A DNA stretch of 63,460 bases, the filler included. It is 4 parts of 4 records of this genome, joined end to end, with 100 filler letters (N's around TTAATTAATTAA, not from the genome) between each part and the next. Parts side by side here need not be neighbours in the genome. Positions count along the whole stretch, not along the records: positions 1 to 22,640 come from SRR31156797_23087; 3 more parts are not named here. One strand, 5' to 3'. A model generated the notes under the pieces. The model saw nothing but the letters and a program-made list of their open reading frames with translations. It did no database searches and was not told where the DNA came from. Positions 2,024 to 54,894 of this stretch are shown here, piece by piece (position 1 is the first letter of the stretch; each line of letters opens with the position of its first letter). Both the position numbers and the translations under genes were made by a program.

Positions 2024-2422
2024 TCATTTTCCCGGCAATCCAAGACGTTCTGCAAACTCTCCAAAACCGACTTCAAGGAGCTTTTCAGGGGCCGTCAGAG
2101 AAATGAAAACGATATTCCTGTCCGCCAGCAAATCCTGCACTTTGTTAGCGAAATCTTCAAGATTCTCAGCATTTGCCAAAATCTCGAGAGAATCAGCGAA
2201 AAAAAACAGCCTCATGGGAGGAACCTCATCGGCTTTTCCTTCAGAGATCTCCCATCCGGCATCTGTTTTAACTGTATTTACAGCATAGATGTTTTCATAG
2301 TATTGTTCTAACAAAACACCGGTATGGAGATCCTGAGTGGCCTCCATACCAAGTAGCGTATTCCACACACGATCTATCACTTCCTTTAATTCACTGTTAT
2401 CAGTGACTTCAAAACCATCCAT
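2024..2422 (-). CDS. hypothetical acidic protein (~132 aa)
   Basis: Co-oriented ORF with AAAGGAG RBS before ATG 2422. No recognised family. Confidence 0.7.
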   Translation of the reverse strand: MDGFEVTDNSELKEVIDRVWNTLLGMEATQDLHTGVLLEQYYENIYAVNTVKTDAGWEISEGKADEVPPMRLFFFADSLEILANAENLEDFANKVQDLLADRNIVFISLTAPEKLLEVGFGEFAERLGLPGK

Positions 2423-2499
2423 TTTCAAACTCCTTTCTTTTTGGGTGTTCCATGGATCTTCACGACACCGGATCAGTTGGATTCAAAATCATAAGATCT

Positions 2500-5924: not shown

Positions 5925-6884
5925 TCAGGCGAATTCCTTTTTTAATTTCTCGGTCAATTCAGGGACCGCCTTGAACAAATCCTCTACCAGACAAAAGTCT
6001 GCTGTGGTGTGTATGGGCGCTTCTTCATCTTTGTTGATGGCAACGATGATTTTGCTGTTTTTCATACCAGCCATATGTTGTATCGATCCGGACAGACCTA
6101 CGGCAACATAGAGTTCAGGCGCCACTTTCTTGCCTGTTTGCCCTACCTGGAGGTCGTTTGAAACCCACCCGGAATCAACCGCAGCCCGGGTGGCGCCCAC
6201 CGCACCGTCAAACAGATCCGCAAGTTCTTCCAAAATCTTGAAATTTTCCGCGCCTGCCATTCCACGCCCTCCAGAGATAACAACTCGGGCTTCGGTGGGA
6301 TCCGGACGTTCACTCTGGGTCTCCTGCATTTCTACGAACCGCGTCTTGCCATCCCCCAACGAAATGTCCAAGGCCTCTATGGGCGTTTCCCGTCCCACAG
6401 ACTCGGCCGGGGCAAAATGGGTTCCTTGAACAGTCACAACCTTAATTTCCGTTGTTATCTCCACGTTGGCAATTGCGCTTCCGGCCCACATTTCCCGTGT
6501 AAAATCCCGCCCATCAAAGGACAGAACACCCGTGGCCATGCCTGCCTCCAGTTTGGCGGCAACCCGCGGCATGAGGTCTCTTCCTGTGGTACCGGAACTC
6601 ATGCCAACGATCTTGGCATCGCAGAATCTTGCGGCATCAGCCACGGCATGTCCCCATGTTTCCGCGGTGTAATTTTCCAGCTGGGGATCATCGGCAGTAA
6701 ATATCTTGGAAGCACCGTAATCCTTTAGGGTCTCCGCGATGCCATCCACATGGCTTCCCACAACGAGCAGATACAACTCACCGCCCAGTTTCCCGGCAGC
6801 TTCCCTGCCAAAGGTTAGGGCGTTGAGCGTAGCCCGTTTCAACTCTCCCTTCCAATGCTCTGCAACCATTAAAATACCCGGCAT
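5925..6884 (-). CDS. etfA: electron transfer flavoprotein alpha subunit
   Basis: Motifs SGGRG, GATRAAVDSG, QVGQTGKKVAPELYVAVGLSGSIQHMAGM, AINKD. Confidence 0.97.
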   Translation of the reverse strand: MPGILMVAEHWKGELKRATLNALTFGREAAGKLGGELYLLVVGSHVDGIAETLKDYGASKIFTADDPQLENYTAETWGHAVADAARFCDAKIVGMSSGTTGRDLMPRVAAKLEAGMATGVLSFDGRDFTREMWAGSAIANVEITTEIKVVTVQGTHFAPAESVGRETPIEALDISLGDGKTRFVEMQETQSERPDPTEARVVISGGRGMAGAENFKILEELADLFDGAVGATRAAVDSGWVSNDLQVGQTGKKVAPELYVAVGLSGSIQHMAGMKNSKIIVAINKDEEAPIHTTADFCLVEDLFKAVPELTEKLKKEFA

Positions 6885-6950
6885 ATTTGATTCTCCTTAA
6901 GACACGGTCATTTTGCGCATCACTTTTAAAAGCGCGGCGCCGATAATTGT

Positions 6951-7697
6951 CTATAAGATCTTTGCTTCCTCTTTTAATCCTTTGACCAGCCCATCCACAT
7001 CCGGAACCACATGTCCCCCTTGACGCTGCGGGGGTGCAGTAAATCCTTTGATGAGCACTTTGGGCGAAACGTCTACACCCAGTTCGGCCAGTGGCATGAT
7101 TTTGACCTCTTTTCGGTCCGCCTTTAGCACGTCGGATACTTTGGGATAGCGGGGTTCATTCAGGCGAAGATCCGTACTAATAATTCCTGGCAGATCAATC
7201 TCCACCACTTCAATGCCTCCATCCACTTCCCGATGCACTGTTGCAGTGCTGCCATTCAATTCAACTTTTGAAGCAAAACATGCCTGGCCCCAGCCCATAT
7301 GCTCGGCCAGCATTTGAGCCACCTGGTTGTCATCCATGTCAACAGCCTGTTTCCCCAGCAACACCAGATCCGGCTGTTCCTGTTCGATAATTTTGGCAAG
7401 AATCAGAGCAATGGCATTGGAATCAAGTTGATCTTCGGTTTTCACCAGAATGCCCCGATCCGCACCCATGGCAAGCCCCGCTCTGATTTCGGTGATTGAA
7501 GCGTCATTACCTATACTGACAACGAACACTTCTCCTCCTCTGTCTTTTTTGATGCGCAATGCTTCTTCGATCGCGATTTCATCAAAAGGATTGATCTTAA
7601 AGTTCATGCTGGATAGCTCAATGCCCGACCCATCCGGCTTAAGTACAATTTTCATGTCAGGGTCTGTGACGCGTTTGGCCGTTACTAAGATCTTCAC
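6951..7697 (-). CDS. etfB: electron transfer flavoprotein beta subunit
   Basis: Motifs INPFDEIAIEEA, LAMGAD, GKQAVD, REVDGG, DLRLNEPRY. Confidence 0.97.
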   Translation of the reverse strand: MKILVTAKRVTDPDMKIVLKPDGSGIELSSMNFKINPFDEIAIEEALRIKKDRGGEVFVVSIGNDASITEIRAGLAMGADRGILVKTEDQLDSNAIALILAKIIEQEQPDLVLLGKQAVDMDDNQVAQMLAEHMGWGQACFASKVELNGSTATVHREVDGGIEVVEIDLPGIISTDLRLNEPRYPKVSDVLKADRKEVKIMPLAELGVDVSPKVLIKGFTAPPQRQGGHVVPDVDGLVKGLKEEAKIL

Positions 7698-7775
7698 ACA
7701 GCACCTCCCGATATCTCTGAAATGACCATCTTTCTTTACCCATGTCTCGCGGCAGGAACAGCTATTTGCTTTTTT

Positions 7776-9353
7776 CTACCGCACCCGTCTTGCCTCGTTT
7801 TTCCAGTATCGCGCTCTGAGTTCCCGTTTGAGAATTTTTCCATAGGGACTCTTGGGCAACTCATCGACAAAATCGACGGACTTTGGTCGCTTGTACCCAG
7901 CCATTTTACCCCTGCAAAATTCAAGGATCTCTTCTTCACTTGCCTGCTGATCCTTTTTCAGTACAGTGACAGCCTTGCCCGCCTCTCCCCATTTCTGATC
8001 CGGCACCCCTATCACGGAGACCTCGCTGACAAAGGGATGTTCAAGAATTATCTCTTCGATCTCCCTGGGATATACATTTGACCCGCCACTGATATACATA
8101 TCTTTGGTCCGGTCCATGACAAAAAGGTAGCCCTGTTCATCAAGGTAACCCACATCTCCTGTGTGAAGCCAACCACCTTTGAGGGTTTTCGCGGTTTCCT
8201 CAGGCCTCTCCCAATATCCCTGCATCACCGTTTCGCCCCGAATACAGATTTCTCCGGATTGGCCTACAGGGACCCTGTTTTCACTTTCATCCAGAATCGT
8301 TATTTCGATTCCCGTCCTCGGGCACCCTGCCGATCCCAGTCTTTTGATCTCATCATCTGTTCCCGAATAGACATGTTCTTCACGCGGGAGAAAAGTACCC
8401 GTCATGGGAGATTCACCTTGGCCGAAAATCTGAACGAAAATCTGGCCGCATTTCTTGAGTGTAAATTTGAGGTCTTCCACATACATGGCGGACCCGCCAT
8501 AGGCAATGTATTGCAAAGAACTGATATCGTATGCGTCGATATCAGGGGACTCAACGAACATCTTGATCATGGTTGGCACCATGAACATGTTGGTCACCTT
8601 CCACTTTTCGACGGTCTCGGCCACATGCTTTGGATCAAAACTCAAGGAATCGAAGATGACATTGGTGGCTCCTTTTGCAGCGATGGGAAGGGCGTGAAAA
8701 CCGGCGCCATGTGACAAAGCGCCTACATGTAGAGCAACGTCTTTGGCCGTTGTTGGAACCAGGTCCGCCAGATACATCAGGATTACCGCCATAAGATTCC
8801 CATGTGAAAGCATGGCGCCTTTGGGTCTTCCGGTGGTCCCTGAGGTATAGAACAGCCACGCCAGATCGTCTTTTTCCACATCAACGGTCTGGTCGTCGGT
8901 GGTCCGGTACTTCTCAATCAACGCCTCATAATCATGATCGCCTGGAGCCGGGTTTTTGAGGCAAATGAAATGCTTCACACCCGGGACTTGATCACGGATG
9001 GTTTTCACCATGTCTTTCATGTTTTCCGCAAATACAAAAGCAGCACATCGGGGGTCATTCAAGTGATAGACAACCTCTCCGGCAAAAAAACGGAAATTCA
9101 ACGGAACGATGACGGCCCCGATCTTGAAACAGGCGAACATGACCTCAATATACTCCGGGCAATTCCCGGACAGTATTCCGACCCGATCACCCTTTTGGAC
9201 TCCAAGGGCTTTTAAGGCACTGGCGAAGGAATCGGTGCGCACATTCGCTTCATTGTAGTTAACGGTTCTATTACCTTGAACAAGAGCAAGCTGATCCGGG
9301 TAATGCTTTGCCGACTGTCTAAGGAGAGAACCTATATTTATCCTCTTGGGCAT
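7776..9353 (-). CDS. AMP-forming acyl/aryl-CoA ligase
   Basis: Motifs YTSGTTGRPKG, FGQGE, GWLHTGD, DRTKDMYISGG, PKSPYGKILK. Start at ATG 9353 after GGAGG. Confidence 0.93.
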   Translation of the reverse strand: MPKRINIGSLLRQSAKHYPDQLALVQGNRTVNYNEANVRTDSFASALKALGVQKGDRVGILSGNCPEYIEVMFACFKIGAVIVPLNFRFFAGEVVYHLNDPRCAAFVFAENMKDMVKTIRDQVPGVKHFICLKNPAPGDHDYEALIEKYRTTDDQTVDVEKDDLAWLFYTSGTTGRPKGAMLSHGNLMAVILMYLADLVPTTAKDVALHVGALSHGAGFHALPIAAKGATNVIFDSLSFDPKHVAETVEKWKVTNMFMVPTMIKMFVESPDIDAYDISSLQYIAYGGSAMYVEDLKFTLKKCGQIFVQIFGQGESPMTGTFLPREEHVYSGTDDEIKRLGSAGCPRTGIEITILDESENRVPVGQSGEICIRGETVMQGYWERPEETAKTLKGGWLHTGDVGYLDEQGYLFVMDRTKDMYISGGSNVYPREIEEIILEHPFVSEVSVIGVPDQKWGEAGKAVTVLKKDQQASEEEILEFCRGKMAGYKRPKSVDFVDELPKSPYGKILKRELRARYWKNEARRVR

Positions 9354-9578
9354 GCCCAAAACCTCCATGAATATTTCCCAAACGAAAGGGCAAGAATCTC
9401 TCTACTCCAAAGATTTTTCATTCCTTTCAGGTATTCTTAAAATGTGTCACAAAAATCCAAGTGTTCCGTATATCCGGCATCCCAAGCCCAAATGGAGAGA
9501 CAGGCGGCGCTTTGCTCAAAGGAGCTTTCCAAATGCTTCCAACTGACCTGAGATACGATAGTGTCCGGATTTGGAACA

Positions 9579-9612
9579 AAGGCTAAAAGAGATATGGATC
9601 CCTTTTAGCCTT
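9579..9612 (-). terminator. hairpin / probable intrinsic terminator after the 457-aa gene
   Basis: 11-bp inverted repeat AAGGCTAAAAG...CTTTTAGCCTT, 12 nt after the stop codon, with a short T-rich tail on the minus strand. Confidence 0.6.
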
Positions 9613-9624
9613 ACTGATTGAATC

Positions 9625-10998
9625 TTATTCGGAGTGATATTCTTTCAAGTGATTCCGAACCTGAGGTGTTGTGACTCCCGGGACATAGTATTTATCGTAA
9701 AAATCACAATCCACATGATGCGCAATCAATTGCATCTGTCCCCCGATGGGTCCGAAATGAACCGGGGCGCGACCGTAATTGTCATAGTAGTATTTAATCG
9801 TCGCCCCGACGGCTTCGATTACCCAGTCCGGGTATTTGCTGGTTGGATTCTCTTTAAAGATCTCGACTGTATCAGCCTTATACGGACCTTTGTTCTTCAA
9901 AATCCAGTTATTCTTCTCATCGTAGCAACCACCACCAGACCATTTTTCATCGACGATGGCACGGCGGGATGATTCCATTGGATCTTCGATCCAGGGCCTG
10001 AAAAATCCTTCGATGACACCCGGAAATCCCAGAACCCGGGTCGACGCGTGGCCCATATCGTCGCCCTCTATGACATCACACTTGAAGCCAAGGCCTTTCG
10101 CATAGTCCGGAAAAGCGCCCAGGAACAGCGGTTGAGACCAGGCTCCAAACATGGAGTTTCCAAGACCAATGGAGGCGCAGGTACTCCGCATGTTCATACA
10201 TGCCATTCCGGTGCTCACCGGCATCAACTCTTTGATGACTTCCTCGAATTGCCATATGGTAAAGGGAATCTCCAGCATCCCTGGTTTCACCCATTCTTCA
10301 GTGTTGCAGGGTTGCTTGGTCTTATCATCAATGATATACCACCCGGCGTTGAGAAAGGCAGTTGCCATGAAGTTGATGTATTCCCTTGAATTGTCACAGA
10401 AAGGCCAGAATATGACCTGCCCGGGCTGCCCCCAGTTCCATTGCATCCATTGCCCCATCAGTTTTCCGGGAACCCCCCAGTCGATGTCGAGATCCTCACG
10501 GTCCATCAACTTGACTTTTCCATCATTGTACCATTCCCAAATCTTCTTGTAGTCACCATCTCCTTCGATCTCGACGGGTTTCTCTCTGGCCATGGGCTGG
10601 TTCATGTACCAAACGGCGTCATCGTCAATAAAAACCAACTGCATCCACTTCAGGTCATTGCAGGGTCTGGGCGTTGTAAAGCCCTGGTAGTTCAACATCG
10701 TCGGACCACCTTGCGCATTGTCGATGTCGCCCATTGCGTACCCGGTGGGTCCCAAGGCAGCCCAGCAAAGCAGCGCCTTTTCCCAATCGGCAACCGGAAC
10801 TGGATCTTTGGAGCCTTTCCATGGGACGAAACCCTCAGGAGAGCTACGTTTTACTTTTCTGGCAGGAGTCACATCTTCTTGCCCCGAGGTGGTATAATTG
10901 CCCATACCGATTCGATGGGATCTGCCCCTACAGAGGGTGTCAAAATAGGTTCCGCCCGTTTCCCAAGCCTTTTTTATCATTTCGATCTTTTTTGACAT
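9625..10998 (-). CDS. uncharacterised 457-aa protein, probable extended nitroreductase-superfamily (FMN) fold
   Basis: Strong AAGGAGGAG RBS. RGRSHR resembles the RRSxR FMN-binding motif and GMACMNMRSTCASIGLG resembles the G..QN..LxA..LGLG motif of nitroreductases. The C-terminal HHVDCDFYDKYY segment is shared with the 22310-22639 paralog. Confidence 0.65.
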   Translation of the reverse strand: MSKKIEMIKKAWETGGTYFDTLCRGRSHRIGMGNYTTSGQEDVTPARKVKRSSPEGFVPWKGSKDPVPVADWEKALLCWAALGPTGYAMGDIDNAQGGPTMLNYQGFTTPRPCNDLKWMQLVFIDDDAVWYMNQPMAREKPVEIEGDGDYKKIWEWYNDGKVKLMDREDLDIDWGVPGKLMGQWMQWNWGQPGQVIFWPFCDNSREYINFMATAFLNAGWYIIDDKTKQPCNTEEWVKPGMLEIPFTIWQFEEVIKELMPVSTGMACMNMRSTCASIGLGNSMFGAWSQPLFLGAFPDYAKGLGFKCDVIEGDDMGHASTRVLGFPGVIEGFFRPWIEDPMESSRRAIVDEKWSGGGCYDEKNNWILKNKGPYKADTVEIFKENPTSKYPDWVIEAVGATIKYYYDNYGRAPVHFGPIGGQMQLIAHHVDCDFYDKYYVPGVTTPQVRNHLKEYHSE

Positions 10999-17976: not shown

Positions 17977-18351
17977 ATGAACAACATCATGAAAATAAAC
18001 GAAAACATATCAAACAATCAGGAAACAGGGCTCGTACAGATCTATACAAACCCAATGGGAAGAATAAATTTCGCGCCTTATGGTCTGGCCTTTCGTGCTT
18101 CGGGTTATGGGCTTCGGTCTTTGATTACCCGTTTTGTGCATCACGAATTGAAGGCCGGGGAAACGGTTGCTTTGAAGCTTCTTGCGTCCGAACTCACAAT
18201 TGATGCCTCAGCAATCGATGCAAATTCCTCGAATTGGGTTTTTGCTGAATCCGCAGTTAAAAAGGCGTTTCAGAATGCTGTGCAGACAGCTTCTTCGGGT
18301 GAATACGATTTGGTGATTTTGGATGGTGTTCTTGAATTGGTTTCAAACTGA
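17977..18351 (+). pseudogene. degenerate/truncated cob(I)alamin adenosyltransferase (CobA/BtuR)-like fragment
   Basis: GLVQIYT...GLAFRASGYG and YDLVILD match CobA/BtuR, but the P-loop (GxGKGKTT) is replaced by NPMGRINF and the protein stops shortly after YDLVILD. Confidence 0.6.
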
Positions 18352-18400: not shown

Positions 18401-19303
18401 ATGAACCTGCAGAGCCATGAAAACAAAGGTCTGGGTATCGATTACAAGGCCGCGGTAGTTAAAAGGGAACCTTACTACCTGCCGGTTAAAGACGAGATCG
18501 AATTGTTCCAAGCTGCGGCAAACTCAAGAATTCCCGTATTGCTGAAAGGTCCTACAGGATGCGGGAAAACAAGGTTCGTGGAATACATGGCCCATTCCCT
18601 TTTAAGGTCTTCGTCTGAAAAGGAAGACAAAAGGGCCGGTTCTATTGAAAATGGAGACAGCAGTGTAAGACGCCCGCTTATAACCGTTGCCTGCCATGAA
18701 GATATGACGGCTACGGACTTGGTCGGACGCTATCTGTTAAAAGACGAACAAACCGTTTGGATTGATGGGCCCCTGACATTTGCCGTTAAAGCGGGGGGCA
18801 TATGCTATCTTGACGAGATTGTTGAGGCAAGGAAGGATACCACGGTCTTGATTCATCCGCTGACAGACTACAGAAGGATTCTGCCCATTGAAAAAAAAGG
18901 GGAACTCATTGAAGCCCACGATGATTTCCTACTTGTCATTTCCTACAATCCAGGGTACCAGAGTGTCTTAAAAGACTTGAAGCACAGCACCCGCCAGCGA
19001 TTTCTTTCCATCGAATTCAATTATCCAGACCGTGACATCGAGTCAAATATCATTGCCCACGAAAGCGGCGCGGGCGAAGATGTGGCTGACGATCTAGCGA
19101 AAATCGGCCAGAAGGTCAGAAACTTGAAGGAACACGGGATACACGAAGGTGTCAGCACCCGCTTGCTTATTTATGCAGGGCAACTCATTAAAGCCGGTAT
19201 AGAAATGAAAAGGGCCTGTCAGGTAGCGATCACTTCGTCCGTAACAGACGACGAGATATATCATAGGGCCATCGAAGAGGTCATCTCAACGATCATCAAA
19301 TAG
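18401..19303 (+). CDS. CbbQ/NirQ/NorQ-family (MoxR) AAA+ ATPase
   Basis: Motifs [68 protein letters not shown]. Start at ATG 18401 after AGGAGG. Confidence 0.95.
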
Positions 19304-19469
19304 CTTCCTGAACCGGTTGCATGATGAGCAAATCAGGATTCATGGGTCCCATATCTTATATTGAATTATGATTCCCTGGCCAATGGAAATCATAGGATTT
19401 TGGAATCGGGATGGAAAATGGCCTAAACGTCAATACAAGAAAAAACACCATAGTGGAGAAAGAGATTTC

Positions 19470-21770
19470 ATGCACCAAGCCTCAATATTCTTGTCCAAAA
19501 TCCGACACGAATTTCGGTCCAAGGCAGAAGAAATCGGATCAAAGATAGCGGCAGTCTCCAAAGAAGACGCCCTGGACTGCTTGTCAATTCTCCCGGGTTT
19601 AATCGCTCAGATCAGACCGGACCATCAGCAATTGTTTGTTGACGGTGCACTTGATATTGCGAGAGTAAATGGAAATTGCAGCCATGTCTTTATCCGCAAT
19701 TTGCCCGAACTGTTCGAAAGAATGTCTGTTTTCGAACTGGGGAACTGGGTCGAACAAGGCATCAAAATCGCAGAAGAGAACATCGATAAAGGGATCGCTT
19801 TCTTCGGGTTGAAGTCAGCAACGAGTAATCGCATGCTGAACACGCTCTCCCGCGTTGTTCGTTTTGCACAAGTGGCACCGATTCTTAAGGTTTATGCACG
19901 GGCTCTCTCGGGAGAAGAACTCCATCTGACGTCTTTGTCCGAAAAAGATTTTCGCGCCATAAGACCGGGCGTCTTCTCTTATACGGACGGGAAAAATTTA
20001 TTCTTACCGCACCGTATTTTCAGCGTGGATAATTCCCTACACAATTTTAGGAGCTACAGGGCTTATGTGGCACATCTTTGCGGGTATTTCGAATTTGGCA
20101 CCCGGGACTTTTCCGTTCAGAAAATTTTCAAGGAATTGTGTCTTATAGAGGCTCCCAAAGTCACCGAATGTGAATTAAAAGCGAACCAGAGTTGCATTAA
20201 ATTTCAGTTCTGGACAACAAATGTCCTAACCGGAGACAACCCCTGTGACGGATGCGCGGTAACCCAGCAAAAAACGGCAGAAACCCTTGTAAATAGCGGC
20301 TTCTCAGGATTTCGGCTCATTAGGGGGTTTATTGATCTTTTTTCAGACCGGTATCTGTCACGCACGTTGTTCTTTGTTCTCGAAGGCGGAAGAATAGCCA
20401 GGAGATTACGGTCGGAATATAAAGGAATTAGGGCGGATCTTGACCGCTTGATTGACATAAATCTGTCTGAAAGGCCGCAGTTGTCCAATCTGCCCCTGAG
20501 ACAGGCGGCCATTGAAGCCCTGGTTCACCTCTGTTCCCGGGGTTATGTTTTGGAGAATATGACGCGCCATTATTCACAGCTGATTCAGGAAATTCTTCCC
20601 ATTGTCGAGCCGATCCTTGGCCCCAATTCGACGGTCATTGACACGGCAAAAGCCACAATCAAATTCTATAATCTGATCGAGCAAATCCCCAATTTTTTGC
20701 CGCCTGCCGTCGTTCTTGTTCCTCTACCCGAAGATGAGCAGCAGAAGATACAGGACTCGACTTTTTTCAAGGATCGGGAAATTCTAAAACAGCTTCAAGA
20801 GCTCGATCAAGCTGATGAGACAACAGAAGAACAGGATGTCTTCTATTACGATGAATGGGATTACAAGATTCAGGACTATTTGACGAGATGGTGCCGAATA
20901 AAGGAAAAAAAGGTCGAAGGAAAGAGCGTACGATTTGTCCAGGACATCATTAAGAATCATCCTAGGCATCTTTATCTCATCAGGAAGCAATTCGAGCGTA
21001 TCAAGCCAGAATTACTAGAAAAAACAAATGGCCTTGAGGACGGAGAAGAAATCCTGTTGGATCAGGCCATAGAATGGATTCTTGACAGAAGAGCAGGTAG
21101 GTCTCCCAATGAGGGAATCTACATGTCCAAAAATAGTAAGAATCGGGATGTCGCCGCACTGTTTCTCCTGGACATGAGCTTGTCAACAGGAAGGCAGTCT
21201 GACCAGAGCAGGAAAACAATCATCGATATCGAAAAAGAGTCCCTGGTGTTCATGGCAGAAGCACTTGAGAAGCTCAAAGATGCTTATGCAATCTTCGGAT
21301 TTTCTGGCTTTGGGAGGAAAAACGTTGATTTTTTCGTTGTTAAGGAGTTTTTGGAGAAGTACTCCATCGCAGTCAAAAGAAGAATCGGCGCTATCGAACC
21401 CCAGTATAACACTCGGACGGGAGCCGCAATCAGGCATTCGATTGAAAAGCTGAAAAAAGTGGAGGCACAGACCAAAATACTCATTTTGCTTAGCGATGGG
21501 CGGCCCTATGATGTCGATTACAGCTCGGATTGCCTGGAACGTTCTGTCCCCATAAACGTGATCGAACAATCCTACTATGTCAATGATACCATGATGGCTC
21601 TTAAAGAAGCGCGGAATTGGGGTATAAAGTCTCTTTGCATTACCGTTGACCCCTTGGGAGACGAGTATTTCAAGAAGATATGCAACTATTCTAATTATAT
21701 CGTTATTAAGCAAGCCACCTCGCTTCCCACAGAACTACCAAAGATATATCAGAACTTCACGATGGTTTAG
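19470..21770 (+). CDS. CbbO/NorD-family VWA-domain protein
   Basis: Motifs YTDG, EGGR, YYDEWDY, MIDAS DMSLST, TRTGAAIRH, LSDGRP. Follows the CbbQ-like gene. Start uncertain (19368 or 19470). Confidence 0.9.
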   Translation: MHQASIFLSKIRHEFRSKAEEIGSKIAAVSKEDALDCLSILPGLIAQIRPDHQQLFVDGALDIARVNGNCSHVFIRNLPELFERMSVFELGNWVEQGIKIAEENIDKGIAFFGLKSATSNRMLNTLSRVVRFAQVAPILKVYARALSGEELHLTSLSEKDFRAIRPGVFSYTDGKNLFLPHRIFSVDNSLHNFRSYRAYVAHLCGYFEFGTRDFSVQKIFKELCLIEAPKVTECELKANQSCIKFQFWTTNVLTGDNPCDGCAVTQQKTAETLVNSGFSGFRLIRGFIDLFSDRYLSRTLFFVLEGGRIARRLRSEYKGIRADLDRLIDINLSERPQLSNLPLRQAAIEALVHLCSRGYVLENMTRHYSQLIQEILPIVEPILGPNSTVIDTAKATIKFYNLIEQIPNFLPPAVVLVPLPEDEQQKIQDSTFFKDREILKQLQELDQADETTEEQDVFYYDEWDYKIQDYLTRWCRIKEKKVEGKSVRFVQDIIKNHPRHLYLIRKQFERIKPELLEKTNGLEDGEEILLDQAIEWILDRRAGRSPNEGIYMSKNSKNRDVAALFLLDMSLSTGRQSDQSRKTIIDIEKESLVFMAEALEKLKDAYAIFGFSGFGRKNVDFFVVKEFLEKYSIAVKRRIGAIEPQYNTRTGAAIRHSIEKLKKVEAQTKILILLSDGRPYDVDYSSDCLERSVPINVIEQSYYVNDTMMALKEARNWGIKSLCITVDPLGDEYFKKICNYSNYIVIKQATSLPTELPKIYQNFTMV

Positions 21771-21872: not shown

Positions 21873-22271
21873 TTAAATCTTTCCAATGACGATATCGGAC
21901 TTTTGAACGAGCTCTAAAATACTCACCATGGGCAGCACCTCAAATTGAAGCGGCACCTTTTCCTCTGCGATCCCAAGCAATTGCAGCCAGAGCTCAGAAA
22001 CGTAAAGGCATACTCCCACATCTTTTGCGCTCTCATACATGGGTTTTGAAGCGCTCGTAATCATCCTGAGTTTCTTTCTGATGATTCCGGCATACTGTTC
22101 CAGCGGAGGTGCCAAGGTTAACTTACCCTCAATAAGAATGGGAATCGCCGCCTCTGTCAAAATGACGGAAGCTTCACACCCCAACTCCCTCGATTTTTTG
22201 GCAACCATTATGCTCGTCAGGATATTATTGATGTTTCCATCGGATACGAAAAAAAGGAGTTTTCGAGCCAT
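21873..22271 (-). CDS. DsrE/DsrF-like protein
   Basis: 132 aa with a DsrE-type pattern (G-x-EASVILT..A, AKDVGV.LY, SDIVIG). The Cys usually found after the LY strand appears as Ser (LYVSELW). Confidence 0.55.
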   Translation of the reverse strand: MARKLLFFVSDGNINNILTSIMVAKKSRELGCEASVILTEAAIPILIEGKLTLAPPLEQYAGIIRKKLRMITSASKPMYESAKDVGVCLYVSELWLQLLGIAEEKVPLQFEVLPMVSILELVQKSDIVIGKI

Positions 22272-22309: not shown

Positions 22310-22639
22310 TTAGTCTTTTTCACCGTGCCATACATCCATGTGATTTCGATGGTGTGGGGTCACATAACCTTGTTTCAAATAATCTTCATAAAAATCGATG
22401 TCCAAATGGTGCAACTGCGCATGCAGATTTGAATGAAAGGCGGAGTAATAAACGGGGAATCTTCCATATTTATCAAAAAGATAGTGCAATACGGACTTGA
22501 CAGCACTCAAACACCAGTCCGAAGGAGGTTTTTGCAGGAGCTCATTTACCGCTGGCGCAATCTTATCCAAATAAGGCGAATTGACAATTGCCTGTTTTTT
22601 CAATTCCAGAACACGATCAACCAGATCGTCGATCGATTT
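22310..22639 (-). CDS. C-terminal part of a paralog of the 457-aa nitroreductase-like protein (5' end lost at contig edge)
   Basis: Frame is open to the contig end. DWCLSAVKSVLHYLFDKYGRFPVYY...HHLDIDFYEDY...VTPHHRNHMDVWH aligns by eye with DWVIEAVGATIKYYYDNYGRAPVHF...HHVDCDFYDKY...TTPQVRNHLKEYH. Confidence 0.85.
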   Translation of the reverse strand, partial: KSIDDLVDRVLELKKQAIVNSPYLDKIAPAVNELLQKPPSDWCLSAVKSVLHYLFDKYGRFPVYYSAFHSNLHAQLHHLDIDFYEDYLKQGYVTPHHRNHMDVWHGEKD

Positions 22640-22640
22640 A

Positions 22641-48721: not shown

Positions 48722-49099
48722 TGCATAACGAACCATTCGTTATCAGAGGCTGTGTGAGTGTGTATCTCTTCATGAGACATGTAAGTTTGATACATCAGAT
48801 ATCTCTTTTCTGTCAAGAAAAATCGACACTCTAAACGGCACATTTTTGACAACCAATTATCATTTAACTTCAAAAGGTTATATTTGTAAGTCAAAATCAG
48901 CTTTTTACGGCGCCTGCGTGAAGACAGGATGATAAATAATTAATATTTAACTCTTGAATAGTAAAATCTCTAAAATACAAAAGCAGAAACCATTTTCTGA
49001 AATATCAACTATTCAATTACGCATAAAACAAACACCTATTCTTATGCGTTGTTTTTCCAATACCAACATCAAAGATCCGAACCATCATCCCGCTCTATT

Positions 49100-49148
49100 A
49101 ACCGCGGCCCGTCCGGTTGTGTTTCAGTAAAAACCCGGGGCCGCGGTT
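49100..49148 (-). terminator. GC-rich hairpin downstream of the USP gene
   Basis: AACCGCGGCCC...GGGCCGCGGTT inverted repeat, 6 nt past the stop codon. No strong U-tract. Confidence 0.5.
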
Positions 49149-49154
49149 TAGCGG

Positions 49155-49625
49155 CTAATATACAAAAAAGACCGAGCACTCGGCTTCGTGCAACACATGA
49201 TTGCTTACGCTGCCGACCAGAATGTCCCTCAAGGCGCTGCGCCTTGTTCTCCCGACAACGATCAGGTCCGCGCCCCAGGCATTGGCGTGTTCCACCATCT
49301 GCCGGCCGGCATTTCCGACTTCAACCACGGATTTGAAAGAAACGCCCCGTTCCTCAGCGGTTTTTCCAAGACCGTCCAGCCAGGCCCGGACATGCTCAAG
49401 ATCTTGTTTTCTCAGTGAATCCCTTTTCTCGAAACCAATGGATTGATTGAGTTCCGTCGCCGCTCCGACACGATCCTCCAGTTCAGCCACGGTGTCCTGA
49501 GGAAGGCAGTGAAAAAGCCTTATCCGGGCCCCCTCCTTTTCAGCCAACCTGATCGCCCTCTCAAATACGGGGGAATCGCTCTTTGTATCCCTGTCTATTC
49601 CCACCAGGATTTTCTTTATTTCCAT
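49155..49625 (-). CDS. universal stress protein
   Basis: Motifs KKILVGID, ADLIVVG, LVGSVSNHVLHEAECSV. Confidence 0.93.
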   Translation of the reverse strand: MEIKKILVGIDRDTKSDSPVFERAIRLAEKEGARIRLFHCLPQDTVAELEDRVGAATELNQSIGFEKRDSLRKQDLEHVRAWLDGLGKTAEERGVSFKSVVEVGNAGRQMVEHANAWGADLIVVGRTRRSALRDILVGSVSNHVLHEAECSVFFVY

Positions 49626-49676
49626 AAGTTTAACCTCTTTTAAACCAAGTCGCCGCTCTTAAAATAATACGGGCTT

Positions 49677-50711
49677 TTATTCCTCTATGGCCCTGATCAA
49701 AAAAGTAGCATTAACTGCTTTCATGAACGCCTCTCTGGGAGGCAGGTCCTTGACCACGCCCTGGTCGGCCAGAAAATCCGCGGTCTCTTTCAAGACAGTG
49801 TACAACCCGAAATTCCAATGTGCTCCGCCGAAATACTTGCCCTCATTCTGTTCCATGGCCGTAAGAGGAATAAGACCCTTCATCTGATTTTCCGCATCTT
49901 CCAGGGGCATGCCCAATTCCTGGGCTATGGCCTTGGCTGCTGCGTCCGGCTTGGCCTTAATATATTTAACGGCGCGATCCAGCATTTTCAAATACAGCAC
50001 CACTGCCCGGGGATATTTTTCCCCGAATTCCGTCCTGACCACGCCGAGGTCTCCGGTAGGGAAACCCTTTTCAGCCAGGCTTCTGCTGGTCAGAATAACC
50101 TTACCCCCGTCTTCAATCATGCTCGCCAAAGTCGGCATCCAAATGAAGCCGGCGTCTATCTCGCCTTTCTTCCAGGCGGCCAGCATATCCCTGGGTTCCA
50201 AGTGAATCATAGTCACTTTTCTGCTGTCGACCCTATTTAGCATGAGCGCGACCATAAGATGATAATCGGTCGTTGATCCAAAAGGAGCGGCCACGGTCTT
50301 GCCGACCAAATCCTTGACAATGTTTATCCCGCTGTCCTTTTTCACCACAAGGGCTTCATTGTCTCCGATAATGTCGTGAATCCAAATGACTTGCAGAGGT
50401 ATTCCATTGGCAATGCCCGCAGCGGTCGGGCTCGTGCCCAACAGAGCCATGTCCAAGGCGCCGGCGGTAAGGGCCTGGTGAGCCTGCATGCCCGATGAAA
50501 CCGGAACCCACTTGACCGGGCGGCCCAGGGCCTGTTCATACCAGCCAAGGTTTTTCATGACTATTTCCGCGGTTGGAAACGCCTGGTACCCGATAACAAC
50601 CTGATCAGGCAGATCATCTTCCCCGGCAACCGCAGGTGTTGAAAACCCGCAGAGGAATAAAGCCGTCGACGCCAGGAAAACCAACACAAGACGTGATACA
50701 AAGGAGCCCAT
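49677..50711 (-). CDS. tauA: taurine ABC transporter substrate-binding protein
   Basis: Signal peptide, IGYQ, IGDNEALVV, APFGSTTDYH, AAWKKGEIDAGFIW. Taurine gene context. ATG 50711 after GGAGG. Confidence 0.8.
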   Translation of the reverse strand: MGSFVSRLVLVFLASTALFLCGFSTPAVAGEDDLPDQVVIGYQAFPTAEIVMKNLGWYEQALGRPVKWVPVSSGMQAHQALTAGALDMALLGTSPTAAGIANGIPLQVIWIHDIIGDNEALVVKKDSGINIVKDLVGKTVAAPFGSTTDYHLMVALMLNRVDSRKVTMIHLEPRDMLAAWKKGEIDAGFIWMPTLASMIEDGGKVILTSRSLAEKGFPTGDLGVVRTEFGEKYPRAVVLYLKMLDRAVKYIKAKPDAAAKAIAQELGMPLEDAENQMKGLIPLTAMEQNEGKYFGGAHWNFGLYTVLKETADFLADQGVVKDLPPREAFMKAVNATFLIRAIEE

Positions 50712-50868
50712 GGAATCCTCCTTTCCCAATTCCCATTTCCCGCTTTTACCAAGCGGGCGGTTAGGGCCGCGGGCCTTTTGCCGATTCAATAGTGAACCCA
50801 TGGCCCGCCGCCTTTTATTCAGGCGGGTTTGAGCATTCGAAACTCAATGCCCTCCTTTGCTACGGCTG

Positions 50869-52416
50869 TTAACCGGCCACGCAACTCCTGACGGACTGCG
50901 CCTCGGGTTTTTTAACTTCCGCGCCTTCACCATCCTGATAAATTCCCGTGGGCGGTGCGGTGCGTATGGTAGCTATCTTGTTTTGAGTGAAAAAGTCTAT
51001 TCCATCCTTGCCCTGCACTTTGTCCGTGCCCAAATGCGAGTCTTTTATGCCTCCAAAGGGAAGGTACGGATGCGGAGCGCAAATGCCGACATTTACCCCG
51101 ACCATGCCAACGTTGGCTTCCGCGATGAACTTTTCGGTGTAGTGGAGGTTCTGTGTGAATATGCAGGCGCCATTTCCGAATTCCTGCTGCCGTATGAGTT
51201 GCAGGGCGTCGTCAATGTCTGCGATCTTTACAACCGAGACAACCGGTCCAAAGATCTCTTCCTGGTAGATTGTCCTGCAGGGTGTTACGTCCGTAAAAAT
51301 GGTCGGACCGACGTAATAGCCGTCCTTGTCCTTTACGTCCGGGTTCCTTCCGTCCAGAACCAGGTTGGAACCGCCTTCGATCCCTATTTCAATATATCTC
51401 TCAATTTTGCTTTTTGCATCCGCCGAAATGACCGGTCCCATATAAACATCCGGATCCATTGCGTTTCCGACTTTAACTTCTTTTGAAGCTTCGACCATTT
51501 TTTCGATTACTTCGTCATATACTTCCGGGACAACCGCCACAATCGATCCGGCGAGACACCTTTGTCCGGCGGAACCGTAACAGGAATTAAGGAAGTTTTC
51601 GATAAAGACGTCCATCTGAAGATCTTCCATGGCGACCAGTAAATTCTTGGCCCCGCCCAACAGCATGGTTCTCTTGCCGCCTCTGCCGCAGCCTTCGGCT
51701 ATCTTTTTAGCGGTAGGAGTCGATCCGACCAGGCAGACGCCGGTCATTTTAGGATGTTCGTACCAGCTCTCCGGGACCTTACGATTGCCGTGGATGATAT
51801 TGACCACGCCTTTTGGCAGCCCGATATCGGTGAAGATTTCGCCCATTTTCTGCATGAACAAAGGCGACTGGGTGGAGGGCTTGAAAATGAAGGTGTTGCC
51901 CGTTCCAATGGCATAAGGCACAAACCAGCCGTATACAAGAGCAGGGAAGTTAAACGGGGCAACCCCGCCGAAAACGCCCAGGGGCTGCTTGATTACTCTG
52001 CCGGATATGTTTGATGCAATACCTTCCAGGGTTTCTCCCTGAATAAGAGTCGGAATGCTGCAGGCGGCCTCAAGAATCTGAACGACCCTCATGACCTCGC
52101 CCCTGGCCTCGCTTATATGCTTGGCCTGATCCACGGCAATTGAAAAAGCCAGTTCTTCCATATTTTCAAGCATTGCCTGGCGCATATCGAATATATAGCC
52201 TATCCTTTTGCCGATAGGCAGCTTCCTCCAGGCGTCATATGCCGCGTATGAAGATTCCACAGCCGCCATCGATGTATCATTTGATGACAGCGGAACCTCG
52301 CCGATCTGCTCGCCTGTTGAAGGATTATATAGAGGAACGTAGTCTACTCCGGTCTCCTCGACCCACTCTCCGTCTATATAGTTTTTAATCCTTGTAAACT
52401 CGATAGAATTGCTCAT
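50869..52416 (-). CDS. CoA-acylating (methyl)malonate-semialdehyde dehydrogenase family protein
   Basis: Motifs APFNFP, FKPS, VGSTP, GGAKN, GSAGQRCLA, EEIFGPV, GMVGVNV, FGGIKDS. Confidence 0.88.
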   Translation of the reverse strand: MSNSIEFTRIKNYIDGEWVEETGVDYVPLYNPSTGEQIGEVPLSSNDTSMAAVESSYAAYDAWRKLPIGKRIGYIFDMRQAMLENMEELAFSIAVDQAKHISEARGEVMRVVQILEAACSIPTLIQGETLEGIASNISGRVIKQPLGVFGGVAPFNFPALVYGWFVPYAIGTGNTFIFKPSTQSPLFMQKMGEIFTDIGLPKGVVNIIHGNRKVPESWYEHPKMTGVCLVGSTPTAKKIAEGCGRGGKRTMLLGGAKNLLVAMEDLQMDVFIENFLNSCYGSAGQRCLAGSIVAVVPEVYDEVIEKMVEASKEVKVGNAMDPDVYMGPVISADAKSKIERYIEIGIEGGSNLVLDGRNPDVKDKDGYYVGPTIFTDVTPCRTIYQEEIFGPVVSVVKIADIDDALQLIRQQEFGNGACIFTQNLHYTEKFIAEANVGMVGVNVGICAPHPYLPFGGIKDSHLGTDKVQGKDGIDFFTQNKIATIRTAPPTGIYQDGEGAEVKKPEAQSVRSCVAG

Positions 52417-52584
52417 TTAACCTCTCCCCGCCGGTTATTTTTCGCTTTGGGCCTTTTAAGGCCTTTTTTTAATTCTTTTTTTGGATATCGGTTCTCGGGC
52501 CCGGGCAATCGGCCGCCCGGGTCCGTTTTTCATCGCCAATGCCGGAAATCATCCTGGTTCCGGGCAAAGACGAGTTGTTGACTA

Positions 52585-53955
52585 TTATGCTTCGACGAAC
52601 TTGTCGCCTTCTTCAAGGGCCTTGTCCATAATGGCAATGCCTTCGTCAATTTCATCCTTGGTGATGATCAACGCAGGCGCCATGGCGATTACGTTGCCCG
52701 GGTTGGCGGCCATGGCCATCATCCCCAGTTCGCCCAGTTTCTTCGCCACTTCGAGCTTGGGATTCATGCCCGGCTGAACCTTGGCGGCCAGGGGCATAAT
52801 CGGCTCCCTGGTCTTCTTGTTTTTGACCAGCTCAAGACCGACAAACAGGCCGAGCCCGCGCACGTCGCCGACGCAGGGGTGTTTATCCTTGAGTTCCATG
52901 GCTTTTTCCAGCAGGTACTGCCCCATCTTCTCGGAGTTTTCGATAAGATTGTCTTCCTGGTAAATCTGGATAACCCTGATAGCCGCGGCGCAGCAAAGCG
53001 CGTGTCCGGCGTAGGTGGCGCCATGGCTGAAAAACTGATCCTTGAACTTGTCGCCGATTTCCTTCTTGGTGACGGCCGCGCCCAATGGAAGGTATCCGGC
53101 CGTGGATCCCTTGGCCAAGGTCATGATATCCGGGACGACATTCCAGTGATCCATGGCGAACCACTTGCCGGTGCGGCCGAAACCTGTCATGACTTCATCT
53201 GCGATCATCAGGATGCCGTGCTTGTCGCAGACTTCCCTCAAACGCGGGAAGTATTCGGGCGGCGGCACGATAATGCCGTTGGCGCCGGTTACTGGTTCGG
53301 CGATTATCGCGGCGACCAGGTCTCCGCTGCCTTCCATTTCCACGACTTCATCAATGTACTTGACGCACTGAAGGTCGCAATCGGGGTATTTCTGCCCAAA
53401 CATGCAGCGGTAACAATAAGGCTGCGGAACGCGGATCATTTCCGTTCCGCCGAGAACCTGGGCCCAGTTGCGGGCGTCGCCGATGGACAGGCTCATGGAA
53501 GTCGCGGTGGCTCCGTGATAAGTCCTGAACCTGGTCACGATCTTGCGGCGGCCGGTGTACTGATGGGCCATTTTGATCGCGGCTTCATTGGCTTCGGTTC
53601 CGCCCAGGTGGATGAACGATCTGGACAGGTCGCCGGGAGTCACTTCGGCCAGCATTTTACCCAAAAGGGCGCGCGGCTTGGTCGAATTGCTGGGGGCGAA
53701 GGAACACAGTTCCTGGGCCTGTGCGCAGATTGCGTCTACTACGCGCTGGTCCTGATGGCCTATATTATGGCTGACGAAACATGAGCTGAAATCGAGGCGC
53801 TCTCTTCCGTCTTCAGTTTTGAACCTGGTTCCCTTGGCCCAGGTCACCCGAGGAGGCGACACCTTGGGCAGGTATGTCCACGATTGAAATATATTTTCGG
53901 TTTCATAGCGGTCGAGATCTTCTTTTTCCGCCGGAATGTTTTTTAGGTCTATCAT
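52585..53955 (-). CDS. class III PLP aminotransferase, probable taurine (or beta-alanine):pyruvate aminotransferase
   Basis: Motifs GTEANE, YHG, AEPVTG, ADEVMTGFGRTG, PDIMTLAKG, HGATYAGH. Downstream of xsc. Confidence 0.85.
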   Translation of the reverse strand: MIDLKNIPAEKEDLDRYETENIFQSWTYLPKVSPPRVTWAKGTRFKTEDGRERLDFSSCFVSHNIGHQDQRVVDAICAQAQELCSFAPSNSTKPRALLGKMLAEVTPGDLSRSFIHLGGTEANEAAIKMAHQYTGRRKIVTRFRTYHGATATSMSLSIGDARNWAQVLGGTEMIRVPQPYCYRCMFGQKYPDCDLQCVKYIDEVVEMEGSGDLVAAIIAEPVTGANGIIVPPPEYFPRLREVCDKHGILMIADEVMTGFGRTGKWFAMDHWNVVPDIMTLAKGSTAGYLPLGAAVTKKEIGDKFKDQFFSHGATYAGHALCCAAAIRVIQIYQEDNLIENSEKMGQYLLEKAMELKDKHPCVGDVRGLGLFVGLELVKNKKTREPIMPLAAKVQPGMNPKLEVAKKLGELGMMAMAANPGNVIAMAPALIITKDEIDEGIAIMDKALEEGDKFVEA

Positions 53956-54063
53956 CTTAAAATACTCCTGGTTTTGGAGAACAACACCCTGTCTTTTCAG
54001 GGCCTGTGTTCGCTAACGGAGCGAAAGGCCATTCGGCCTCCGCCCCGCATTGTTAACCTGGTA

Positions 54064-54894
54064 TTAGAGGTTAAGGTGTTTGTATTTGGGCAGCAAGTTG
54101 AAAGCAGGATTAAGAGCATCCCTGCGGAAAGGCTCTGCCAAAACGTTTTCGCCGCCTTCGATCATGGCATTGATGACGCAGGGTTTGCCGGAGGCAATAG
54201 CGTCTTTTACCACGTCCTGAACGTCGTTGTAATCGTCGACCAGGTAGCCCTTGGCGCCCATGACTTCGGCCAGTTTGGCGTAGTCCGGGTTTTCCCTCAG
54301 GTTGCTGCCCACGAAGCGGTTGTTGTAGTAGTCGATCTGGTTCTTTTTCTCAGCGCCCCATTCCAGGTTGTTGGCCACAACGGCTATAACCGGAATGTTT
54401 TCGCGGACCGCGGTCATTACTTCGGCAATGCCGCTGATGCCGTAAGCGCCGTCGCCCTGGAAGGCGAAGACCGGAGCTTCGGGTTTGACCAGCTTGGCTC
54501 CCAGGGCCGCGCCGTATGCGAAGCCGCAGTTGCCCCAGCTCAGAGCGGAGATATGCTGGCGCACGCCGCCGAACTTGAAGTAGGAGTTGCACATGGAAGA
54601 GTTGTTGCCGATGTCGGTGGCCACAATGCTGTTATCGGGCATGGCCAGGGACAGTTCGCGCAGGAAGCGGCGGGGATGCATCAGCTTGTTGGTTGATGTT
54701 GACCATTCTTCCAGCTCGTCGCCCCAGATTTTCTTTTCCTTTTCAATGTCTTCCAAGCGGGCGGAGTCGGGGGTCAGGCCGGGTTTCATTTCCTTAATGG
54801 TTTTGAACAGTTCGGCGCTGTATTCCTTGACGTCGGCGCAGGAAGCAACGTCCACCTTCATGCTGAGTCCCAGCACGCTGGTGTCCACGTCGAC
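54064..54894 (-). CDS. xsc: sulfoacetaldehyde acetyltransferase, C-terminal part (5' end lost at contig edge)
   Basis: Motifs TDIGN, GNCGFAY, the ThDP motif GDGAYG...NN, and the Xsc-typical WGAEKKNQIDYYNNRFVG and EPFRRDAL. Confidence 0.9.
   Translation of the reverse strand, partial: VDVDTSVLGLSMKVDVASCADVKEYSAELFKTIKEMKPGLTPDSARLEDIEKEKKIWGDELEEWSTSTNKLMHPRRFLRELSLAMPDNSIVATDIGNNSSMCNSYFKFGGVRQHISALSWGNCGFAYGAALGAKLVKPEAPVFAFQGDGAYGISGIAEVMTAVRENIPVIAVVANNLEWGAEKKNQIDYYNNRFVGSNLRENPDYAKLAEVMGAKGYLVDDYNDVQDVVKDAIASGKPCVINAMIEGGENVLAEPFRRDALNPAFNLLPKYKHLNL

What the first reader, a model, noticed from the sequence alone, without database searches (positions are those of the whole stretch)
18401..21770. 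Orphan CbbQ/NorQ + CbbO/NorD pair without RubisCO, NO reductase or glycyl-radical client
Known: such AAA+/VWA pairs activate RubisCO (CbbQO), insert iron into cNOR (NorQD) or accompany fumarate-adding enzymes (BssEF). Seen: none of these clients is on the contig. The VWA protein has a Cys-rich insert (ELC...EC...SC...PCDGC) and a long helical N-terminal region. Inference: a new client enzyme, with the two flanking nitroreductase-like paralogs or the OYE as candidates.
Basis: partly seen in the sequence, partly recalled or inferred. Interest (0 to 1): 0.7.

Follow-up and report, generated by a model that had tools for sequence, protein, structure and literature searches.

The report
Orphan NorQD-like remodeller, CoA-transferase candidate
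Two intact genes encode a predicted ATP-driven protein-remodelling pair from a widespread branch separate from the RubisCO and nitric-oxide-reductase helpers; it likely acts on an enzyme encoded elsewhere, possibly a CoA-transferase, rather than on the neighbouring flavoproteins.

Summary
The pair is real: a 300-aa CbbQ/NorQ-type ATPase and a ~770-aa adaptor with an intact MIDAS. Both genes fall in a well-supported clade (Dehalococcoidia/SAR202, Tectomicrobia, Desulfobacterota) outside CbbQO and NorQD. Known clients are rare in 46 clade-bearing genomes: 1 true cbbL, 0 cNOR-like norB, 6 glycyl-radical hits. The proposed local clients are not supported: nitroreductase-like genes and the pair never share a locus (0/80, 0/80, 0/40), and the OYE is absent from 34/46 genomes. 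The helical N-terminus is ordinary (homologous to CbbO). The four-cysteine insert is real but occurs in only 2 of 199 parsed relatives. New lead: family III CoA-transferases are expanded in 22/22 clade-bearing Desulfobacterota genomes versus 57/279 others, and in 2-Mb SAR202 chromosomes with few other acyl-CoA enzymes. This is a correlation only: there is no gene linkage, and rich genomes without the pair exist. The scan met this clade before in Dehalococcoidia (seven notes, coaE-linked operon). The window's genome is not held, so its own clients could not be checked.

The parts
18401..19303 (+). CbbQ/NorQ-type MoxR AAA+ ATPase, 300 aa. Walker A GPTGCGKT (50), helix-2 insert [10 protein letters not shown] (109), Walker B CYLDE (135), STRQRF (196), STRLL (252)
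   Evidence: H2i motif as defined in PMC13036017; other motif names from established AAA+ knowledge
19470..21770 (+). CbbO/NorD-type VWA adaptor, 766 aa (start may lie up to 19368): helical repeats, core N-domain, short linker, VWA domain with MIDAS D568-S570-S572, T648, D676
20169..20255 (+). Four-cysteine insert C234-x7-C242-x16-C259-x2-C262 in a variable loop of the N-domain; shared only with P0001; C224 not conserved
   Evidence: pLDDT below 50 over residues 230-262
17977..18351 (+). Truncated CobA/CobO adenosyltransferase-like ORF (124 aa, P-loop degenerate, last third missing), 49 bp upstream of the ATPase on the same strand; likely a remnant
9625..10998 (-).
   Evidence: no Pfam or NCBIfam hit; fold Z 12.8, rmsd 3.4, 183 aligned to 8cqs
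22310..22640 (-). C-terminal 109 aa of a second nitroreductase-fold paralog, cut by the contig end
   Evidence: 35% identity over 79 aa to the 457-aa protein, E 1e-18; 60% to a paralog in L091
14618..16663 (-).
21873..22271 (-). DsrE-like protein of 132 aa, convergent with the VWA gene
   Evidence: Atlas score 0.90 to a cluster with DsrE in 27% of members; no Pfam hit

Best explanation
The two genes encode a predicted NorQD/CbbQO-type machine of a separate clade that likely remodels a CoA-handling enzyme encoded elsewhere in the genome, the best candidate being family III (CaiB/BaiF/Frc) CoA-transferases. Shown here: intact motor and MIDAS motifs, clade membership, lack of linkage to known or neighbouring clients, and the co-occurrence with CoA-transferase expansions. 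Inferred from NorQD and CbbQO: an ATPase hexamer holds one adaptor by its finger and C-terminus, the MIDAS grips an acidic surface residue of the client, and ATP hydrolysis twists the linker to open the client. Speculative: the job would be to free trapped CoA or acyl species from the buried active site of the interlocked transferase dimer, or to help thread that dimer. Odds: machine of a distinct clade acting in trans 0.8; CoA-linked client 0.5; family III CoA-transferase specifically 0.25.
For: Clade: 41 of 77 ATPases group at 100/99; 35 of 52 VWA domains at 98/96; AU tests reject joining CbbQ+amidase or NorQ groups (ATPase p 0.046 and 0.016; VWA p 0.0004, 0.002 and 2.5e-8). Stand-alone module: neighbours vary across 40 Desulfobacterota loci; in 12 of 80 VWA loci no ATPase was found (several are short contigs), and in G010 and G012 it lies on another contig. 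CoA link: a coaE-like gene occurs in 62 of 80 loci. In the 301-genome sample, 22 of 22 clade genomes have 8 or more first-look candidates versus 57 of 279 others. A second lineage of orphan ATPases (7 genomes; 5 of them tested, 87-95% identical to the G322 protein) has 14-39 candidates. Four 2.0-2.6 Mb SAR202 genomes hold 19-31 transferase matches but 1-2 acyl-CoA dehydrogenases, 2-4 CoA ligases, 3-9 hydratases, no mutase and no OYE match. SDRs do not discriminate (9-18 in 5 with, 9-22 in 5 without). Family III enzymes are interlocked dimers with covalent aspartyl intermediates and tightly held CoA (PMC9813914, passages).
Against: Correlation only, from about 6-7 independent lineages that share a CoA-rich lifestyle; within Desulfobacterota alone the dehydrogenase control also separates well (AUC 0.86 versus 0.95). 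No gene linkage: transferase genes lie in 0 of 80 and 1 of 40 pair loci and none in the window. Not sufficient: 10 of 32 genomes with 15 or more candidates had no ATPase hit; one (G002) has the VWA gene, and five tested had no VWA hit (no positive control in that call, incomplete MAGs). G012, one of the ATPase's nearest relatives, has only 5 transferases but 25 hydratases and 26 ligases. The degenerate-subunit subfamily occurs in only 13 of 22 clade genomes and in 34 others. Candidate counts are a proxy, and 76 unlisted no-match genomes were counted as low. The family was chosen by me as a guess; no unbiased profile over all families was run. Family III enzymes work in E. coli without such a pair (recalled). 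The window's genome could not be searched.
Confidence: 0.4

Rival explanations
1. Same machine, but the client is another enzyme encoded elsewhere and not yet guessed, for example a corrinoid or metal enzyme that needs a cofactor inserted or released.
For: Every statement on clade and motifs holds equally. A RACo-like (reductive activator of corrinoid) gene and a Lin0512 gene lie upstream of the ATPase in one deltaproteobacterial lineage (L003, L228, L230-L233; RACo confirmed by Pfam for L003 only), and the window has a cobO remnant upstream. The Cys4 insert could hold a metal.
Against: RACo/Lin0512 linkage is confined to one lineage. The B12 mutase and the CCG Fe-S protein of the window were each found in only 1 of 5 small clade genomes.
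Confidence: 0.3
2. One reading: this short, Cys-bearing sub-branch has been retargeted to a neighbour, a nitroreductase-fold protein or the OYE.
For: The sub-branch is divergent (VWA stem 0.75 changes per column), its linker region is 160 aa versus at least 260 in 108 relatives, and the N-domain is proposed to set specificity (PMC9976466, passages). 3 of 7 Desulfobacterota genomes with the nitroreductase-like family carry a clade ATPase (Fisher p 0.01, not corrected for kinship). A sister pair on a Miltoncostaea plasmid also lies divergent from a CoA ligase-DUF35-thiolase set.
Against: 0 of 80 VWA loci and 0 of 40 ATPase loci hold the nitroreductase-like gene or the OYE; 0 of 80 nitroreductase-like loci hold either gene of the pair (many of these loci are under 10 kb). 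43 of 46 and 19 of 22 clade genomes have no match. The OYE is missing from 34 of 46. L091 has a related cluster (two paralogs, radical SAM, OYE, dehydrogenase) with no pair in 13.5 kb. The pair faces away from the cluster across a 1.3-kb gap and a gene remnant.
Confidence: 0.12
3. BssEF-like helper of a glycyl-radical enzyme encoded elsewhere.
For: Glycyl-radical hits occur in 6 of 46 clade genomes, all deltaproteobacterial, including G012.
Against: None in the other 40, including all Dehalococcoidia searched. bssEF normally sit in the bss cluster (PMC7285207, passages). No BssE reference was in my trees, so this was not tested by phylogeny.
Confidence: 0.05
4. Bona fide CbbQO or NorQD whose client lies elsewhere in the genome.
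For: 55% identity to CbbQ and about 50% to NorQ; the genome could not be checked.
Against: 60-71% identity to the orphan clade, 85% to its closest member; AU rejection for both genes; 1 of 46 clade genomes has a cbbL-cbbS operon and none a cNOR-like norB (best 22-33% identity, versus 56% for a true norB beside norQ in L264). Only two CbbQ references, neither form II.
Confidence: 0.04
5. A displaced, decaying passenger with no present job.
For: Follows a truncated cobO; long branch; lost repeats and linker; GC 45-48% against 48-54% for most cluster genes.
Against: All motor and MIDAS residues are intact; an orthologous pair at 85% and 79% identity has full-length frames with the same insert.
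Confidence: 0.07

Closest known systems
NorQ-NorD (FeB insertion into cNOR; PDB 9qh4-9qhg; PMC13036017, PMC9976466)
   Same: ATPase motifs including the GRXLL/IXXXXT helix-2 insert and cysteines in the P-loop and ACHED motifs; VWA domain with MIDAS (TM 0.81 to 9qh6_G, E 2e-16); similar helical C-terminus.
   Different: Separate clade; no norCB nearby; adaptor longer, with CbbO-like helical repeats and a Cys4 insert.
CbbQ-CbbO RubisCO activase (PDB 5c3c, 6l1q; PMC4660213)
   Same: Highest-scoring solved relative (348 bits); adaptor of about 770 aa; N-terminal helical region homologous (E 2e-8 to Nitrobacter CbbO in an 8-sequence test).
   Different: Separate clade; cbbL operon in 1 of 46 clade genomes.
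Dehalococcoidia coaE-AAA-hydrolase-long VWA operon
   Same: Same clade for both genes.
   Different: The window has no coaE or hydrolase gene; its adaptor is about 300 aa shorter and carries the Cys4 insert.
BssE-BssF (benzylsuccinate synthase cluster)
   Same: AAA+ and VWA superfamily pair in anaerobic degraders (PMC7285207, passages).
   Different: No glycyl-radical gene nearby; relationship not tested by tree.

Membership tests
CGN-type MoxR AAA+/VWA remodeller (works like CbbQO/NorQD) | AAA_5 + CbbQ_C domains with Walker A/B, H2i motif, sensor and arginine-finger motifs | tested here: met
CGN-type MoxR AAA+/VWA remodeller (works like CbbQO/NorQD) | Adjacent VWA adaptor with complete MIDAS (DxSxS-T-D) and NorD-like fold | tested here: met
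   D568, S570, S572, T648, D676; fold hit 9qh6_G
CGN-type MoxR AAA+/VWA remodeller (works like CbbQO/NorQD) | 6:1 complex with client-stimulated ATPase activity | not testable with these tools
   needs biochemistry
CbbQ/CbbO RubisCO activase | Groups with cbbL-linked CbbQ and CbbO | tested here: not met
   AU p 0.046 (ATPase, CbbQ+amidase group) and 2.5e-8 (VWA, CbbO); two references only
CbbQ/CbbO RubisCO activase | Form I/II RubisCO in the same genome | tested here: inconclusive
   own genome not held; 1 of 46 clade genomes has a cbbL-cbbS operon, 4 more have weaker RubisCO-like hits
NorQ/NorD | Groups with norB-linked NorQ and NorD | tested here: not met
   AU p 0.016 (ATPase) and 0.002 (VWA)
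NorQ/NorD | cNOR norCB in the locus or genome | tested here: inconclusive
   absent from the visible contig; 0 of 46 clade genomes above 33% identity to NorB; own genome not held
BssE/BssF | Located in a fumarate-adding enzyme cluster | tested here: not met
   no glycyl-radical gene in 1-22640; about 17.9 kb of further contig unseen
BssE/BssF | Phylogenetic grouping with BssE | not tested
   no BssE sequence was fetched
Nitroreductase superfamily (the 457-aa neighbour) | Nitroreductase fold | tested here: met
   VIA Z 12.8, rmsd 3.0-3.4, 183 aligned; all 50 listed rows are nitroreductase-fold or related entries by title; Foldseek best E 8e-3

The most novel reading that the evidence does not exclude
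A third major client class for CbbQO/NorQD-type machines: an activase or assembly factor for family III CoA-transferases, the most expanded enzyme family of SAR202 and of CoA-rich Desulfobacterota, with coaE and a Nudix hydrolase completing a CoA damage-control operon in Dehalococcoidia. In this window's sub-branch a Cys4 metal or redox site would regulate the adaptor.
Probability: 0.2. Interest if true: 0.8.

Novelty: new variant of a known kind. Interest (0 to 1): 0.5.

Why it matters
Only two clients of this ATPase subfamily are biochemically established (RubisCO, cNOR). Yet 63 of 301 sampled Desulfobacterota genomes and many Dehalococcoidia carry such ATPases, mostly labelled 'NorQ' or 'CbbQ', and only 1 of 40 loci read had a known client beside it. 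Such labels can wrongly suggest denitrification or carbon fixation. If the client is the family III CoA-transferase, an abundant deep-ocean lineage would depend on an unrecognised enzyme-repair system, and the claim can be tested with three purified proteins.

Tried and rejected
Benzene-activation 'Magic' cluster or BzS1 flavoprotein context: no MoxR, VWA or nitroreductase terms in PMC13101534 or PMC13416013. Greedy ORF filtering lost real genes in GC-rich loci, so the counts were redone by tblastn. AlphaFold2 of the adaptor gave pLDDT below 50 across the insert, so no metal-site geometry. Promoter and terminator scans were at chance level (9 versus 9.4, 8 versus 6.7); no sigma-54 motif matched my pattern. 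No RNA holder listed. The window's genome is not held, and the record behind L091 could not be searched. Rejected as clade-wide clients because missing from small clade genomes: acyl-CoA mutase (1 of 5), CCG Fe-S protein (1 of 5), SCP-x-type thiolase (3 of 5, weak), OYE (12 of 46). The degenerate-subunit CoA-transferase subfamily did not track the clade closely. Paper searches listed no paper on this clade or on an AAA+/VWA helper of CoA-transferases; I saw listings only for most, and subscription journals are not covered.
Full report
Observation. The window is four pieces joined by N-linkers; the finding lies on the first, 1-22640. No genome is held. By eye the other pieces look like other organisms (spirochaete-like genes in two, inference), so they say nothing on clients. 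A public 40,589-bp contig holds 9000-22640 in one piece with no differences and runs about 17.9 kb further; it may be the source, so it is not independent. The ATPase (18401-19303) carries AAA_5 and CbbQ_C domains and all motor motifs. The adaptor (to 21770) has a complete MIDAS and a NorD-like VWA domain. The pair is preceded by a truncated cobO-like ORF with a degenerate P-loop, whose relatives are about 175-180 aa from their first Met. It faces away from a CoA-dependent catabolic cluster: OYE, thiolase, DUF35, radical SAM, nitroreductase-fold protein, CoA ligase, ETF, Fe-S protein, acyl-CoA dehydrogenases.

Adaptor anatomy. The helical N-terminus is homologous to that of CbbO (E 2e-8 and 4e-5 for two CbbO in an 8-sequence test) and is a repeat that longer relatives carry in more copies. 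The window's version is short: 171 residues before the core versus a median of 387, and 160 versus at least 260 residues across the linker region, among 110 parsed sequences. The Cys insert sits in a variable loop. Of 356 family sequences, 199 could be parsed; only the window and P0001 (79% identical) have a CxxC there, with four cysteines in the same spacing, and 171 have no cysteine. A scan of 1.84 billion representatives with residues 161-347 gave 161 hits, of which 150 were listed; only P0001 scored below 1e-30. The model is unresolved over 230-262. A metal site is plausible but rests on two sequences.

Phylogeny. References came from plasmid loci with annotated neighbours: 2 CbbQO, 7 NorQD, 7 amidase- or urease-linked pairs and 1 Miltoncostaea pair. 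The ATPase falls in an orphan clade (99/97 among 57 rows; 100/99 for 41 of 77 rows), nearest to P0146, P0147, two Tectomicrobia proteins and G012. The VWA domain gives the same picture. AU tests reject joining CbbQ+amidase or NorQ groups; the ATPase-CbbQ test is marginal (p 0.046). The trees used LG+G4 without a mixture model and subsets of the loci (for example 23 of the 80 genome loci), and lack form II CbbQ and BssE.

Known clients. In 46 of the 80 genomes behind the VWA loci: RubisCO family 5, of which one (G011) lies in a cbbL-cbbS-prk operon and the others look like RubisCO-like proteins (small-subunit and kinase labels recalled); NorB matches 11, all 22-33% identical; glycyl-radical domain 6, all deltaproteobacterial. 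Completeness figures were not given; several are single-chromosome assemblies by their record titles.

Proposed local clients. 0 of 80 VWA loci hold the nitroreductase-like gene or OYE, and 0 of 80 nitroreductase-like loci hold the pair. That family travels with CoA ligases (22 of 80) and thiolases (19 of 80). 0 of 40 Desulfobacterota ATPase loci hold either. The OYE matches 12 of 46 genomes, often in many copies. L091 has a related cluster without the pair in 13.5 kb.

Search for the client. In Dehalococcoidia the pair follows coaE (62 of 80 loci), as earlier notes of this scan reported. That led me to test CoA enzymes. Mutase, CCG Fe-S protein and thiolase failed in small clade genomes. Family III CoA-transferases stood out: median 18.5 versus 2 matches in 30 clade and 20 hand-picked non-clade genomes, and 22 of 22 versus 57 of 279 at 8 or more first-look candidates in the 301-genome sample (76 unlisted no-match genomes counted as low). 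A second orphan lineage of 7 genomes is also rich. Controls: acyl-CoA dehydrogenase AUC 0.69 overall but 0.86 within Desulfobacterota; hydratases and ligases scarce in four small SAR202 genomes but abundant in G012; SDRs uninformative. Against: no gene linkage, five rich genomes without a VWA hit, a subfamily test that was only partly consistent, few independent lineages, and a family picked by hypothesis rather than by an unbiased scan.

Mechanism. By homology, the adaptor's finger and C-terminus would dock in the ATPase hexamer, its MIDAS would bind an acidic residue on the client, and ATP hydrolysis would twist the linker (PMC13036017: outline, Results parts 1-2 of 3, Discussion; PMC9976466 and PMC4660213: passages). 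Family III transferases are interlocked dimers with covalent aspartyl intermediates and tightly bound CoA (PMC9813914, passages), and are described as the most prominent paralog family after the monooxygenases in SAR202 (PMC5395668, passages). Release of trapped CoA species, or help with threading, is my inference; nothing here shows binding.

Novelty. This is a new variant of a known machine: an undescribed clade with an unknown client. Searches of the held library listed no paper on it; I read no supplements, and supplementary alignments of the NorQD papers could include clade members. PMC7285207 was seen as passages; PMC13101534 as a listing and an empty term search; PMC13416013 as abstract and an empty term search. 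The scan noted the clade seven times in Dehalococcoidia; this window adds a short, Cys-bearing branch from what is likely an anaerobic deltaproteobacterium, the rejection of the neighbouring clients, and a testable candidate. Interest 0.5.

Noticed in passing
L168, L171, L174, L175, L177, L178 (plasmids of alpha- and betaproteobacteria): CbbQ/VWA pairs lie one or a few genes downstream of aliphatic amidase amiE and group with CbbQO in both trees: a likely further client class; my one paper search listed no description.
   Followed up: partly
   Followed up: partly
L227-L266 (Desulfobacterota genomes): 63 of 301 genomes carry a CbbQ/NorQ-type ATPase, in several clades; of 40 loci read only L264 has norB and none has cbbL. 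One lineage has adaptors of about 1470 aa (L262, L265).
   Followed up: partly
L167 (Miltoncostaea plasmid) 5965-9675: Sister pair with the adaptor split into two genes (362 and 548 aa), divergent from a CoA ligase-DUF35-thiolase set.
   Followed up: partly
L003, L228, L230-L233: RACo-like (ASKHA, Fe-S) and Lin0512-family genes directly upstream of the ATPase in one deltaproteobacterial lineage.
   Followed up: no
window 2024-2428: 134-aa protein without a Pfam hit, 58% identical to a gene in the same position (after an acyl-CoA dehydrogenase, before a nitroreductase-fold gene) in L091; looks like a sterol-carrier-type domain by eye (recalled, untested).
   Followed up: no
G018 (L275-L304): A 2.0-Mb SAR202 chromosome holds at least 31 family III CoA-transferase domains, mostly as tandem double-domain proteins of 810-950 aa.
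   Followed up: no
L006: Record titled Klebsiella pneumoniae, but its VWA protein is nearly identical to those of uncultured deltaproteobacteria: likely a mislabelled MAG.
   Followed up: no
window 48722-54894: Piece 3 holds an ABC substrate-binding protein, aminotransferase, aldehyde dehydrogenase and a ThDP enzyme fragment that look like a taurine-degradation set (read by eye).
   Followed up: no
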